39,004 nt of DNA. It comes from Shigella phage SFP21A. Below the pieces are notes generated by a model, which was not told where the DNA came from, did not search any database, and was given only the letters and a program-made list of their open reading frames with translations. The stretch lies in the sequence record OQ031074; one strand, 5' to 3'. Each line of letters starts with the position of its first letter. Position 1 is the first letter of the stretch. The position numbers were made by a program, and so were the translations under genes. This document shows positions 1 to 1,358 of this stretch, one piece after another.

Positions 1-1050
1 ATGGCAAACGTTCCGGGTCAGAAAATTGGTGCAGACCAAGGTAAGGGCAAATCTAGTGCAGACCAGCTCGCACTGTTCCTTAAGGTCTTCGCTGGTGAAG
101 TCCTGACAGCTTTCACTCGCCGCTCTGTTACCGCTGACAAACATATTGTCCGCACCATTCAGAATGGTAAGTCCGCACAGTTCCCGGTAATGGGTCGCAC
201 CTCAGGTGTGTATCTTGCTCCCGGTGAGCGCCTGAGCGATAAGCGCAAGGGTATCAAACACACTGAGAAGGTTATCACCATTGATGGTCTGCTGACCGCT
301 GACGTGATGATTTTCGACATCGAAGACGCCATGAACCACTATGACGTGGCTGGCGAGTATTCCAACCAGCTCGGTGAGGCTCTGGCTATCGCTGCTGATG
401 GCGCGGTACTGGCTGAGATGGCGATTCTGTGTAACCTCCAGGCTGCATCCGACGAGAACATCGCTGGTCTGGGCAAGGCGTCCGTTCTGGAAGTTGGTAC
501 TAAAGCAGACCTGAACACTCCAGCCAAGCTTGGTGAAGCTATCATCGGTCAACTGACCATCGCACGTGCGAAGCTGACTGCCAACTACGTGCCTGCTGGC
601 GACCGCTACTTCTACACCACCCCTGACAACTACTCCGCGATTCTGGCGGCTCTGATGCCTAACGCTGCTAACTACGCTGCGCTGATTGACCCTGAGACGG
701 GCAACATCCGTAACGTAATGGGCTTCGTTGTGGTAGAAGTTCCTCACCTGACTCAGGGCGGTGCTGGTGAAACTCGTGGTGACGATGGTATCTCTATCGC
801 TTCCGGTCAGAAACACGCATTCCCGGCTACCGCCAGCTCTACCGTTAAGGTTGCTCTGGACAACGTTGTGGGCCTGTTCTCTCACCGTTCTGCTGTCGGT
901 ACTGTTAAGCTGCGCGACTTGGCGCTGGAACGTGACCGCGACGTCGATGCTCAGGGCGACCTGATTGTTGGTAAGTACGCTATGGGTCACGGCGGTCTGC
1001 GTCCAGAAGCGGCAGGCGCACTGGTTTTCAAGGCAGCGTCAGCGGGTTAA
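1..1050 (+). CDS. 10A: major capsid protein (T7 gp10A homolog)
   Basis: 349-aa ORF with T7-capsid blocks in the translation (KSAQFPV, HTEKVITIDGLLTADV, MPNAANYAALIDPE, HRSAVGTVKLRDLALER, KYAMGHGGLRPEAAG). Its RBS AGGAGA is at the window end (~38991-38996), so the start codon sits at the permutation point. Confidence 0.95.
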   Translation: MANVPGQKIGADQGKGKSSADQLALFLKVFAGEVLTAFTRRSVTADKHIVRTIQNGKSAQFPVMGRTSGVYLAPGERLSDKRKGIKHTEKVITIDGLLTADVMIFDIEDAMNHYDVAGEYSNQLGEALAIAADGAVLAEMAILCNLQAASDENIAGLGKASVLEVGTKADLNTPAKLGEAIIGQLTIARAKLTANYVPAGDRYFYTTPDNYSAILAALMPNAANYAALIDPETGNIRNVMGFVVVEVPHLTQGGAGETRGDDGISIASGQKHAFPATASSTVKVALDNVVGLFSHRSAVGTVKLRDLALERDRDVDAQGDLIVGKYAMGHGGLRPEAAGALVFKAASAG

Positions 1051-1313
1051 CGACCTTTAAGGCCCTCTCTACAGAGGGTCCTACCTTAGAGACATACAGT
1101 TCTACGGTGGGAACCAGCTTGAAGGTTGACTTCCCTGAGCTTTCAGACGTGACCGATTGGTCGCTGCTTGAGGTGACTACGCCTGATGGTGTTAGCTACT
1201 CCCGTAGAACCAACAGTCTCTACTTCAAGGCCACCTCTGGCGTGGAAGGTCTGGTGATTGTTGGGTATGACGGTTCGCCTGTGCGTTCCTTCAACGTATC
1301 TTTCACAAACTAA
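1023..1313 (+). CDS. 10B: putative -1 frameshift extension of capsid (10B-like minor capsid form)
   Basis: The -1 frame is open from 975 to the TAA at 1311-1313. A slip-prone G GUU UUC sits at 1023-1029 just before the 10A stop, at the position where T7 makes 10B. Track ORF 1107..1313 is in this frame. Confidence 0.45.
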   Translation, partial: GFQGSVSGLTTFKALSTEGPTLETYSSTVGTSLKVDFPELSDVTDWSLLEVTTPDGVSYSRRTNSLYFKATSGVEGLVIVGYDGSPVRSFNVSFTN

Positions 1314-1317
1314 TTGA

Positions 1318-1358
1318 AACCCCTTGGGTGCCTTCGGGTGCTTGAGGGGTTTTTTGCT
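1318..1358 (+). terminator. intrinsic terminator after capsid gene (T-phi-like)
   Basis: GC-rich hairpin CCCCTTGGGTGCC..GGTGCTTGAGGGG followed by TTTTTT (1351-1356). Same position and similar sequence to T7 T-phi as recalled. Confidence 0.75.

What the first reader, a model, noticed from the sequence alone, without database searches (positions are those of the whole stretch)
975..1313. Programmed -1 frameshift producing an extended minor capsid protein
The capsid gene stops at 1048-1050, but the -1 frame is open from 975 to 1313 and would add ~95 aa. A U-rich slip site G GUU UUC (1023-1029) sits in the overlap, in the same place relative to the stop as the T7 10A/10B frameshift site. A strong terminator hairpin follows the extended ORF.
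Basis: partly seen in the sequence, partly recalled or inferred. Interest (0 to 1): 0.45.

Follow-up and report, generated by a model that had tools for sequence, protein, structure and literature searches.

The report
Frameshifted capsid protein with Ig-like tail
This T7-like phage very probably makes a second, longer capsid protein by a programmed -1 ribosome slip at G GUU UUC, as T7 does. The added tail here is a small Ig-like display domain that public genome records list as a separate "hypothetical" gene.

Summary
The window is a complete Kayfunavirus-type genome, 98.7% identical to Cronobacter phage Dev2 over 1-1400, rotated to start at gene 10.

- **Gene layout:** Gene 10A is 1..1050. 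The -1 frame is open 975..1313. The heptamer G_GUU_UUC (1023-1029) is in the right phase 18 nt before the 10A stop. A T7 T-phi-like terminator (1316-1353) follows the -1 stop.
- **Predicted product:** 10B would be 343 + 94 = 437 aa, 46.0 kDa.
- **Slip site tracks the tail:** In 83 related loci, all 55 with a T7-type or window-type tail have [G/C]GTTTTC. Of 19 loci without a tail, 16 use other Val/Phe codons.
- **No independent gene:** The -1 frame is under purifying selection upstream of any start codon (pN/pS 0.33, against 1.3-1.6 in the other frames). No start codon is conserved.
- **Tail structure:** The predicted tail is a 20-residue disordered linker plus a 7-strand Ig-like domain. The annotated stand-alone starts would cut off its first strand.
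- **Experimental support:** The same heptamer is shown to shift by mass spectrometry in Kvp1. Frameshifting in K1F gene 10 is reported and exploited for display, and 10B is annotated as a frameshift product in T7.

This is a new member of a known kind. The useful point is that about 450 phage records list this tail as a separate small ORF. 10B has not been detected as a protein for this phage.

The parts
1..1050 (+). Gene 10A, major capsid protein (349 aa, stop TAA at 1048-1050)
   Evidence: Pfam PF21703 Gp10A-like, E 1.3e-104. 98.7% nt identity to Cronobacter phage Dev2 gp10.
1023..1029 (+). Slippery heptamer G_GUU_UUC, in zero-frame phase (Val342-Phe343), followed by an invariant A at 1030
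   Evidence: It is the only GGTTTTC on the + strand of the window. The same heptamer and phase occur in T7, K1F and Kvp1. It is conserved in 57 of 83 loci and linked to tail presence.
1029..1313 (+). 10B-specific -1 frame coding sequence (94 codons plus stop TAA at 1311-1313). The -1 frame is open from 975.
   Evidence: Purifying selection in this frame only. Matches PHROG 7473 at E 3.4e-37. Found by tblastn in 454 phage records.
1029..1091 (+). Linker part of the 10B tail (tail residues 1-21), predicted disordered. It contains the 10A stop read through in the -1 frame.
   Evidence: AlphaFold2 pLDDT about 48 for residues 1-20. Within the window clade, pN/pS is 0.33 in the -1 frame against 1.61 and 1.28 in the other frames for 1050-1118.
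1092..1310 (+). Ig-like beta-sandwich domain of the 10B tail (tail residues 22-94, seven strands)
1107..1313 (+). Stand-alone ORF as listed mechanically (GTG 1107; relatives annotate TTG 1119..1313 as gp10.1 / 'minor capsid protein'). Judged not to be an independent gene.
   Evidence: Starts are not conserved. Weak SD, -2.9 and -5.6 kcal/mol against -10 to -13 for genes 11 and 12. These starts would cut off strand 1 of the domain.
1051..1128 (+). Predicted RNA three-way structure. It includes hairpin 1062-1079 (7 bp, loop CUAC), hairpin 1080-1111, and closing stem 1051-1061/1118-1128. A possible outer helix runs 1035-1046/1132-1141. Candidate frameshift stimulator; role unproven.
   Evidence: z -3.3. 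Consensus fold within the clade. The 120 nt after the heptamer are among the 0.7% most stable of 3889 genome windows. Positionally equivalent hairpins occur in other lineages, with 2 compensated pairs in the Klebsiella-phage (Przondovirus-type) lineage.
1316..1353 (+). T-phi-like intrinsic terminator (17-bp stem, UUCG loop, U-run to 1355) with CCCC at 1321-1324
   Evidence: Alignment with the K1F and T7 terminators. The T7 CCCC is implicated in gene 10 frameshifting (PMC5009743).
1371..1937 (+). Gene 11 (tail tubular protein A); context, strong SD AAGGAGG

Best explanation
**Mechanism.** A minority of ribosomes translating gene 10 slip one base back on G_GUU_UUC (1023-1029). tRNA-Phe in the A site re-pairs from UUC to UUU, and tRNA-Val in the P site re-pairs from GUU to GGU. 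Translation then continues in the -1 frame (CAA GGC AGC ...), passes the 10A stop, and ends at UAA 1311-1313, just before the T-phi-like terminator.

**Product.** The product is a 437-aa minor capsid protein 10B. It consists of the capsid fold (residues 1-343), a roughly 20-residue flexible linker, and a roughly 73-residue Ig-like beta-sandwich domain. The domain would be displayed on the outside of a fraction of capsid subunits.

**Origin of the tail.** Relative to K1F and T7, the tail is an exchanged cassette. Homology runs up to GGTTTTCA, breaks, and resumes at the last two codons of 10B plus the terminator.

**Shown versus inferred.**
- Shown by sequence and comparison: the site, phase, open frame, selection, fold prediction and cassette boundaries.
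- Inferred from T7, Kvp1 and K1F experiments: that the shift actually happens. That its efficiency is about 10% as in T7 rests on my own knowledge of the T7 literature, not on a paper read here.
- Inferred from the fold: that the domain is surface-displayed and acts as a weak adhesion or decoration module.
- Unproven: a highly structured RNA segment starting 5-21 nt after the heptamer, and the terminator's CCCC, are candidate stimulators.
For: **1. Site and phase.** The heptamer is identical to T7's, where 10B is annotated as a frameshift join. It is identical to Kvp1's, where mass spectrometry found 10B peptides (PMC2579914; L032 is Kvp1 at 100%). It is identical to K1F's, where a GFP fusion to the 10B C-terminus gives fluorescent virions (PMC6277420).

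**2. Heptamer linked to tail.** In 83 loci, all 55 with a window-type or T7-type tail carry [G/C]GTTTTC. Of the 19 without a recognisable tail, 16 have GTC/GTA/GTG/ATC-TTC or GTT-TAC, and there the terminator follows the 10A stop directly. Fisher p is 1.4e-13, not corrected for phylogeny. The Val-Phe residues are kept, so the constraint is on the nucleotides.

**3. Open frame.** The -1 frame is open from the heptamer to the domain in all 32 distinct window-type tails and in 4 further loci. This includes lineages only about 45% identical in the tail and one with a much longer linker.

**4. Selection.** Within the window clade, pN/pS is 0.33 for 1050-1118 and 0.20 for 1119-1310 in the -1 frame. 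In the other two frames it is 1.3-1.9.

**5. No conserved start.**
- TTG1119 is CTG in L004 and CTT in L012.
- GTG1107 is GTA in L100 and absent in L014 and in the Klebsiella-phage lineage.
- Gene callers start the ORF at 6 different alignment columns.
- SD pairing is -2.9 and -5.6 kcal/mol, against -12.6 and -10.8 for genes 11 and 12.

**6. Domain boundary.** The AlphaFold2 model has strand 1 at tail residues 22-26 (nt 1092-1106), upstream of both candidate starts. The PHROG 7473 profile also aligns from tail residue 15.

**7. Cassette boundaries.** They lie at the heptamer and at the terminator. Both tail types occur among capsids 94-97% identical to the window's.
Against: - No protein data exist for this phage or, in the papers I could search, for any phage with this tail type.
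- All twelve GenBank and RefSeq records of this tail type that I inspected either annotate the tail as a separate ORF or leave it unannotated. None annotates it as a join.
- All 33 protein clusters found are short, 54-87 aa, and no natural in-frame capsid-tail fusion turned up.
- P-site re-pairing (GUU to GGU) is imperfect, and the first base of the heptamer varies in relatives (G in 57, C in 2, A in 1). Efficiency may therefore be low.
- No canonical stimulator lies 5-9 nt downstream with covariation support.
- Some relatives have an ATG overlapping the 10A stop (TAATG in L001 and L012). This leaves room there for termination-reinitiation as an additional route.
Confidence: 0.85

Rival explanations
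1. The tail is an independent small gene (gp10.1, 64-68 aa). It would be translated from its own start (GTG 1107 or TTG 1119), as annotated in GenBank, and would not be joined to the capsid protein.
For: - Relatives annotate 1119..1313 (TTG) as gp10.1, 'hypothetical' or 'minor capsid protein'.
- A GGUGG motif lies 7 nt before TTG1119, with an SD duplex of -5.6 kcal/mol.
- All database proteins of the family are short.
Against: - Neither start is conserved, even among close relatives. L004 and L012 lack TTG1119, L100 lacks GTG1107, and L014 and the Klebsiella-phage lineage lack both.
- Gene callers choose 6 different start columns.
- The 68 nt upstream of the starts are under purifying selection in this frame and are always open back to the heptamer.
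- These starts would delete beta-strand 1 of a confidently predicted domain.
- The SD is far weaker than that of neighbouring genes.
- This reading does not explain why the silent GTT-TTC codon pair is invariant only in phages that have a tail.
Confidence: 0.07
2. Both routes operate. Most tail protein is made as 10B by frameshifting, and some free tail domain is made by internal initiation or, in relatives with TAATG, by termination-reinitiation at the 10A stop.
For: - L001 and L012 carry an ATG overlapping the 10A stop.
- 87-aa ORFs starting there are called in several phages (P0001-P0003).
- There is a weak SD before TTG1119.
Against: - The window itself has ACG, not ATG, at 1050-1052.
- The ATG is sporadic.
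- A free 64-68 aa fragment would lack strand 1.
Confidence: 0.05
3. The -1 product arises by transcriptional slippage. The phage RNA polymerase would delete one U in the U4 run, rather than the ribosome slipping.
For: The site is a T run (1025-1028), and slippage by RNA polymerases on homopolymer runs is known (reviewed in PMC5009743).
Against: - Four U is much shorter than the runs that give appreciable transcriptional slippage (established knowledge; see PMC5009743).
- The conserved unit is the phased heptamer plus a following A, not run length.
- The T7 and Kvp1 cases are described as ribosomal (PMC5009743, PMC2579914).
Confidence: 0.02

Closest known systems
Bacteriophage T7 gene 10A/10B programmed -1 ribosomal frameshift (Condron, Atkins and Gesteland 1991, as reviewed in PMC5009743; NC_001604 annotates 10B as a join)
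   Same: - The capsid protein is homologous.
- The heptamer G_GUU_UUC is identical, in the same phase, followed by A, within the last codons of 10A.
- The -1 ORF ends immediately before a T-phi-type terminator containing CCCC.
   Different: - The tail is 94 codons from the shift instead of 56 and is unrelated in sequence. T7 has an Ala/Glu/Lys-rich tail (...LTPAQEAARTRAANKARKEAE...); this one has a linker plus an Ig-like domain.
- The heptamer lies 18 nt rather than 9 nt before the stop.
- The terminator CCCC lies 290 nt rather than 179 nt after the heptamer.
Escherichia phage K1F gene 10/10b (type species of Kayfunavirus; PMC6277420, PMC13370021)
   Same: - Same genus-level backbone.
- The sequence around the heptamer is identical (TCCAGAAGC.GCAGGCGCACTGGTTTTCA).
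- The terminator is nearly identical.
- K1F 10b has been used experimentally to display GFP and Ig-like/BACON domains on the capsid.
   Different: K1F has the short T7-type tail (48 codons from the shift, 44 beyond 10A). The window carries a natural Ig-like domain at the position where the K1F engineers inserted foreign domains.
Kluyvera phage Kvp1 10B (mass-spectrometry proof of -1 shift 'at TTTTCA', PMC2579914)
   Same: Same heptamer and following A (GCGCTGGTTTTCAA). L032 is Kvp1.
   Different: Kvp1 has a T7-type tail of 44 codons beyond the 10A stop.
T3 / phiYeO3-12-type 10B with a predicted Ig-like domain (shift at Lys codons according to PMC2579914; Ig-like, mucin-binding tail according to the discussion of bioRxiv 10.64898/2026.06.25.734500)
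   Same: An Ig-like domain is appended to a fraction of capsid subunits by a -1 frameshift near the end of gene 10.
   Different: - The slip site differs. Loci with tails that look Big_2-like to me (named from their sequence, not tested against Pfam) have A_AAG_G and lack GGTTTTC.
- The domain family differs: no Pfam hit, and hhalign probability against those tails is 0.9%.

Membership tests
T7-type gene 10 programmed -1 frameshift (10A/10B) | Host gene is a T7 gp10A-type major capsid protein | tested here: met
   PF21703 Gp10A-like, E 1.3e-104, residues 60-342.
T7-type gene 10 programmed -1 frameshift (10A/10B) | Heptamer G_GUU_UUC in zero-frame phase within the last codons of 10A | tested here: met
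   1023-1029, phase correct, 18 nt before the stop. Same in T7 (9 nt) and K1F (12 nt).
T7-type gene 10 programmed -1 frameshift (10A/10B) | -1 frame open from the heptamer past the 10A stop, in this phage and its relatives | tested here: met
   975..1313 open. Open in all 32 distinct window-type tails and 4 extra loci.
T7-type gene 10 programmed -1 frameshift (10A/10B) | Heptamer conserved at silent positions only where a tail exists | tested here: met
   55 of 55 tailed loci have it, against 3 of 19 tail-less loci. The 3 exceptions look like damaged tails.
T7-type gene 10 programmed -1 frameshift (10A/10B) | Coding constraint in the -1 frame upstream of any internal start | tested here: met
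   pN/pS 0.33 (-1 frame) against 1.61 and 1.28 for 1050-1118. The comparison uses 12 sequences, with most of the signal coming from L012.
T7-type gene 10 programmed -1 frameshift (10A/10B) | Tail ORF ends at a T-phi-type terminator whose CCCC contributes to shifting in T7 | tested here: inconclusive
   The terminator and CCCC are present. Their effect on shifting cannot be tested here. The role in T7 is taken from PMC5009743.
T7-type gene 10 programmed -1 frameshift (10A/10B) | 10B protein detected (larger capsid band, junction peptide) | not testable with these tools
   No proteomic data were available. No paper was found for this tail type.
T7/K1F-type 10B tail (orthology of the tail itself) | Tail sequence with the ...LTPxQKAARTRAANKA... 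motif | tested here: not met
   The alignment breaks right after GGTTTTCA and resumes at the last two codons. The tail belongs to PHROG 7473.
Ig-like domains displayed on phage structural proteins | Ig-like beta-sandwich fold | tested here: met
Ig-like domains displayed on phage structural proteins | Membership of a described sequence family (Pfam Big_2, BACON, etc.) | tested here: not met
   No Pfam hit at E <= 1 other than noise. hhalign against the Big_2-looking tails gives probability 0.9%. Comparison with a BACON-repeat protein, P0038, gives probability 36%, which is only a hint.
Independent small gene gp10.1 (as annotated in GenBank) | Conserved start codon with a ribosome-binding site | tested here: not met
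   Starts are lost in L004, L012, L100, L014 and the Klebsiella-phage lineage. There are 6 different called starts. The SD is weak.

The most novel reading that the evidence does not exclude
The segment between the gene 10 slip site and the T-phi terminator may be a natural plug-in slot. Its boundaries, GGTTTTCA and the last codons plus terminator, are fixed, while the displayed module is exchanged by recombination among T7-family phages. The modules seen are the T7-type charged tail, this unclassified Ig-like domain, tails that look Big_2-like in one or two copies, and a 470-codon tail. A positionally conserved RNA hairpin or three-way structure starting about 20-30 nt after the heptamer, too far away for a classical stimulator, may be a shared non-canonical part of the shift signal in all these lineages.
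Probability: 0.3. Interest if true: 0.45.

Novelty: new member of a known kind. Interest (0 to 1): 0.27.

Why it matters
**Annotation.** About 450 deposited phage genomes carry this tail. They include Kayfunavirus phages, KP32-like Klebsiella phages used in therapy work, and Pectobacterium and Dickeya phages. In every record of this tail type that I inspected, it is listed as a separate hypothetical ORF or left out. The correct gene model is a frameshifted capsid protein, and proteomics databases built from those records cannot find the junction or linker peptides.

**Biology.** A fraction of capsid subunits of these phages would display an Ig-like domain. This is the same arrangement that engineers build on K1F 10b to make phages stick to epithelia (PMC13370021). 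It bears on phage adherence, immunogenicity and display technology.

**Mechanism.** It adds nothing fundamentally new to the T7 paradigm.

Tried and rejected
- **In-frame fusions.** I looked for a natural in-frame capsid-tail fusion as independent proof. The word-index search and the full HMM search of 1.84 billion representatives gave only short ORFs. They also gave weak additive matches to unrelated Ig-repeat proteins (BACON, He_PIG/PKD, Invasin_D3/Big_1).
- **BACON relationship.** hhalign probability is 36%, so this is not claimed.
- **Relationship to the Big_2-looking tails.** hhalign probability is 0.9%, so this is rejected at the sequence level.
- **Rfam.** Only sub-threshold chance hits in 900-1450.
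- **Canonical stimulator 5-9 nt after the heptamer.** In the window clade the consensus fold has an outer helix starting 5 nt after the heptamer. The sequences are too similar to test it. By my reading of the alignment columns, the equivalent outer helix in the Klebsiella-phage lineage is broken in several sequences without compensation. Only the inner hairpin there shows compensated pairs. I therefore do not claim the outer helix.
- **Literature.** I searched for proteomic or structural evidence for this tail type and found nothing. The two Condron 1991 papers are not in the held library, so their content is cited only through PMC5009743 and PMC2579914.
- **Records labelled only 'major capsid protein'.** I checked three records whose match fell under that label, hoping for a slippage join. 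None had one.
Full report
**What the window is.** Over 1-1400 the window is 98.7% identical to Cronobacter phage Dev2. It is 98% identical to Citrobacter phages SH4 and SH5 and to Shigella phages SFPH2 and SFP20, all in genus Kayfunavirus of the T7 family. It starts exactly at the ATG of the major capsid gene, as does the SFP20 record, whose features have the same coordinates. The capsid protein (1..1050, 349 aa) matches Pfam Gp10A-like at E 1.3e-104.

**Checking the observation.**
- The 10A stop is TAA at 1048-1050.
- The -1 frame has a stop at 972-974 and is open from 975 to TAA 1311-1313.
- GGTTTTC is at 1023-1029 with GTT and TTC as zero-frame codons. It is the only GGTTTTC on the + strand of the 39-kb window.
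- A shift there gives 343 + 94 = 437 aa and 46.0 kDa, against 36.4 kDa for 10A.
- The hairpin after the -1 stop is a 17-bp stem with a UUCG loop and a U-run (1316-1353, -25.2 kcal/mol, z -4.6). It aligns with the K1F terminator and with T7 T-phi.

**Is it more than chance? Comparative test of the slip site.** I fetched 80 gene 10 loci from IMG/VR and added several GenBank records. For each I located the 10A stop, the homologous Val-Phe codon pair and the -1 ORF.
- Fifty-seven loci have GGTTTTC.
- Of these, 30 have a tail like the window's (87-92 codons beyond the stop, motif RRTNSLYFK). Another 23 have the T7/K1F-type tail (39-51 codons, motif LTPQQKAARTRAANKA). One has a tail that looks Big_2-like.
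- The remaining 3 look like damaged tails: a premature stop in L035, a 1-nt deletion in L019, and a disrupted domain in L018.
- Two more loci with the window-type tail have CGTTTTC, and one (L107) has AGTTTTC.
- Sixteen loci that code the same Val/Ile-Phe/Tyr residues with GTC-TTC, GTA-TTC, GTG-TTC, ATC-TTC, GTT-ATC or GTT-TAC have no tail. In those I folded, the terminator follows the 10A stop within 10-25 nt.
- The association gives Fisher p = 1.4e-13. The loci are phylogenetically related and some are the same phage from two sources, so this number overstates independence.
- The qualitative point stands: a silent codon choice is invariant exactly where a tail exists. The base after the heptamer is A in all 57.

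**Is the tail translated from the capsid frame or from its own start?** GenBank records of close relatives annotate 1119..1313 (TTG start) as 'gp10.1 hypothetical protein' or 'minor capsid protein'. KP32-like Klebsiella phages do the equivalent. Some records leave it unannotated, and none of the twelve I opened uses a join. Five results argue against an independent gene.

1. The -1 frame is open all the way back to the heptamer in all 32 distinct window-type tails and in four further loci. These include one with a linker twice as long.
2. Within the window clade (12 sequences, no indels), the stretch 1050-1118 lies upstream of both candidate starts. It has pN/pS 0.33 in the -1 frame but 1.61 and 1.28 in the other frames. 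Twelve of its 23 variable sites fall at -1 frame third positions. The domain part 1119-1310 gives 0.20 against 1.87 and 1.41. Much of the linker signal comes from the most divergent member, L012.
3. No start codon is conserved. TTG1119 is CTG in L004 and CTT in L012. GTG1107 is GTA in L100. Both are missing in L014 and in the Klebsiella-phage lineage. The 33 protein clusters of this family in the 5.8-billion-protein collection are 54-87 aa long, and the 24 that I aligned start at six different alignment columns.
4. SD pairing before GTG1107 and TTG1119 is -2.9 and -5.6 kcal/mol. The values for genes 11 and 12 are -12.6 and -10.8, and the median over 30 long ORFs is -7.8.
5. AlphaFold2, run on the 25-sequence alignment, predicts tail residues 1-20 as disordered. 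Residues 21-94 form a seven-strand beta domain at pLDDT about 90. The first strand is at residues 22-26, that is nt 1092-1106, upstream of both starts. The PHROG 7473 profile also aligns from tail residue 15.

**Experimental anchors from relatives.**
- T7's RefSeq record annotates 10B as a two-piece join at the same heptamer.
- The review by Atkins et al. lists G_GU as the X_XX of the T7 gene 10 site. It also notes that a CCCC in the terminator, more than 200 nt 3' of the site, is involved (PMC5009743).
- For Kluyvera phage Kvp1, MALDI MS/MS of a 43.6-kDa band identified -1 frame peptides, with the shift 'at TTTTCA' (PMC2579914). Locus L032 is Kvp1 at 100% identity and has GCGCTGGTTTTCAA.
- For K1F, the type species of the window's genus, a -1 shift adding 44 triplets is reported, and GFP fused to the 10b C-terminus yields stable fluorescent phage (PMC6277420). 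My count for K1F agrees: 48 codons from the shift, 44 beyond 10A.

**What is different here: the tail.**
- Aligning window, K1F and T7 shows continuous homology up to GGTTTTCA, no homology through the tail, and homology again from the last two codons of 10B through the terminator.
- Both tail types occur among capsids 94-97% identical to the window's (L011-L014 against L015-L017, L022, L023, L053). The window-type tail also occurs in Klebsiella-phage loci whose capsids are about 73% identical. So tail type does not follow capsid phylogeny. It behaves as an exchangeable cassette bounded by the slip site and the terminator.
- The domain has no Pfam match and belongs to PHROG 7473, 'unknown function'.
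- Sequence-profile comparison with the Big_2-looking tails of other T7-family loci is negative (hhalign probability 0.9%). I named those tails Big_2-like from their sequence and did not test them against Pfam.
- A full HMM search found weak additive matches to Ig-repeat proteins. The best is a BACON-repeat protein, but hhalign gives only 36% probability. I leave the family unassigned.
- By tblastn the tail occurs in 454 phage records: 285 Klebsiella phages, then Escherichia, Salmonella, Enterobacter, Pectobacterium and others.
- An Ig-like tail added to 10B by frameshifting is already described for T3 (discussion in bioRxiv 10.64898/2026.06.25.734500). T3 and phiYeO3-12 shift at Lys codons (PMC2579914). 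In my loci the Big_2-looking tails indeed go with A_AAG_G and lack GGTTTTC.
- The window therefore combines the T7-type Phe site with an Ig-like tail of a different family.

**RNA context.**
- The 120 nt following the heptamer fold to -48.1 kcal/mol. That is within the most stable 0.7% of 3889 windows of the genome. For 1015-1130 the z-score is -3.3.
- The consensus fold of ten clade members has three parts: a hairpin 1062-1079, a second hairpin 1080-1111, and a closing stem 1051-1061/1118-1128. A possible outer helix starts 5 nt after the heptamer.
- Diversity is too low for a real covariation test. Two pairs are compensated and several are broken in L012.
- Nearly every lineage with the heptamer has a stable hairpin starting about 20-35 nt after it, despite unrelated sequences. 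In the Klebsiella-phage lineage that hairpin has two pairs with compensatory changes. By my reading of the same alignment, the outer helix is not supported there.
- The spacing is longer than the 5-9 nt typical of -1 stimulators. I therefore report this as a candidate element of unknown role, not as an established stimulator.
- Rfam has nothing for the region.

**Verdict.** I put about 0.85 on a -1 ribosomal shift at 1023-1029 producing a 437-aa minor capsid protein. The step from 'all sequence signatures present' to 'protein is made' rests on experiments in T7, Kvp1 and K1F, not on this phage. It is a new member of a well-known kind. The added value is the corrected gene model for a widespread, unclassified Ig-like capsid tail. 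Interest is modest.

Noticed in passing
Loci L038, L042, L043, L050, L056, L057, L081 (about 20 nt before the 10A stop, near 2485-2525 in locus coordinates): T7-family capsid genes whose -1 tail looks like a Big_2-type Ig domain (two copies in L038, 176 codons). They lack GGTTTTC but all have A_AAG_G just before the stop. This fits the Lys-codon shift reported for T3 and phiYeO3-12 (PMC2579914).
   Followed up: partly
L072 (IMGVR_UViG_3300034349_000001), from about 1245 onward: [quoted passage not shown] It begins with an Ig-like segment and continues with a large extra part that resembles an esterase/lipase-type region. If it is a frameshift product, this would be an unusually large capsid appendage.
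   Followed up: no
window 1061-1081 and equivalent positions in L011/L013/L014, in the Klebsiella-phage-type loci L047 and L061-L082, in the Kvp1-like and related T7-type-tail loci L020 and L026-L040, and in K1F (L091): A stable hairpin starts about 20-35 nt after the heptamer (8-14 nt after the 10A stop) in almost every lineage that has a 10B tail, although the sequences are unrelated. Two compensated base pairs occur in the Klebsiella-phage lineage. The spacing is too long for a classical -1 stimulator, and the role is unknown.
   Followed up: partly
L001 1049-1053 and L012 (same alignment position); window 1050-1052 is ACG: Some close relatives have TAATG, an ATG overlapping the 10A stop in the tail frame. 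Gene callers therefore predict 87-aa ORFs (P0001-P0003). This could allow termination-reinitiation as a second route to the tail in those phages, but not in the window.
   Followed up: partly
L019 (IMGVR_UViG_2974615076_000001) about 2540; L018 (IMGVR_UViG_2974604219_000001) about 2700; L035 about 2585: These three loci keep the heptamer but have a damaged tail. L019 has a 1-nt deletion at the 10A stop that puts the K1F-type tail in the +1 frame. In L018 the window-type domain is replaced halfway by a hydrophobic sequence. L035 has a premature stop. They could be sequencing errors or natural loss; I know T7 10B to be dispensable.
   Followed up: no
window 1-39004: The window appears to be a whole phage genome rotated to begin at the gene 10 ATG. 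Late genes 10-19 come first, and the early and DNA-metabolism genes follow from about 18.5 kb. GenBank record OQ031076.1 (Shigella phage SFP20) uses the same rotation and the same feature coordinates.
   Followed up: partly
window 309-315: A second in-phase U-rich heptamer, G_AUU_UUC (ATG ATT TTC), lies inside the capsid gene. By my reading of the sequence, the -1 frame there hits a stop after about 9 codons, so it has no coding potential.
   Followed up: partly
window 202-990, minus strand: A 262-aa ORF lies antisense to the capsid gene. It was not examined and is most likely a by-product of codon bias in a highly expressed gene.
   Followed up: no
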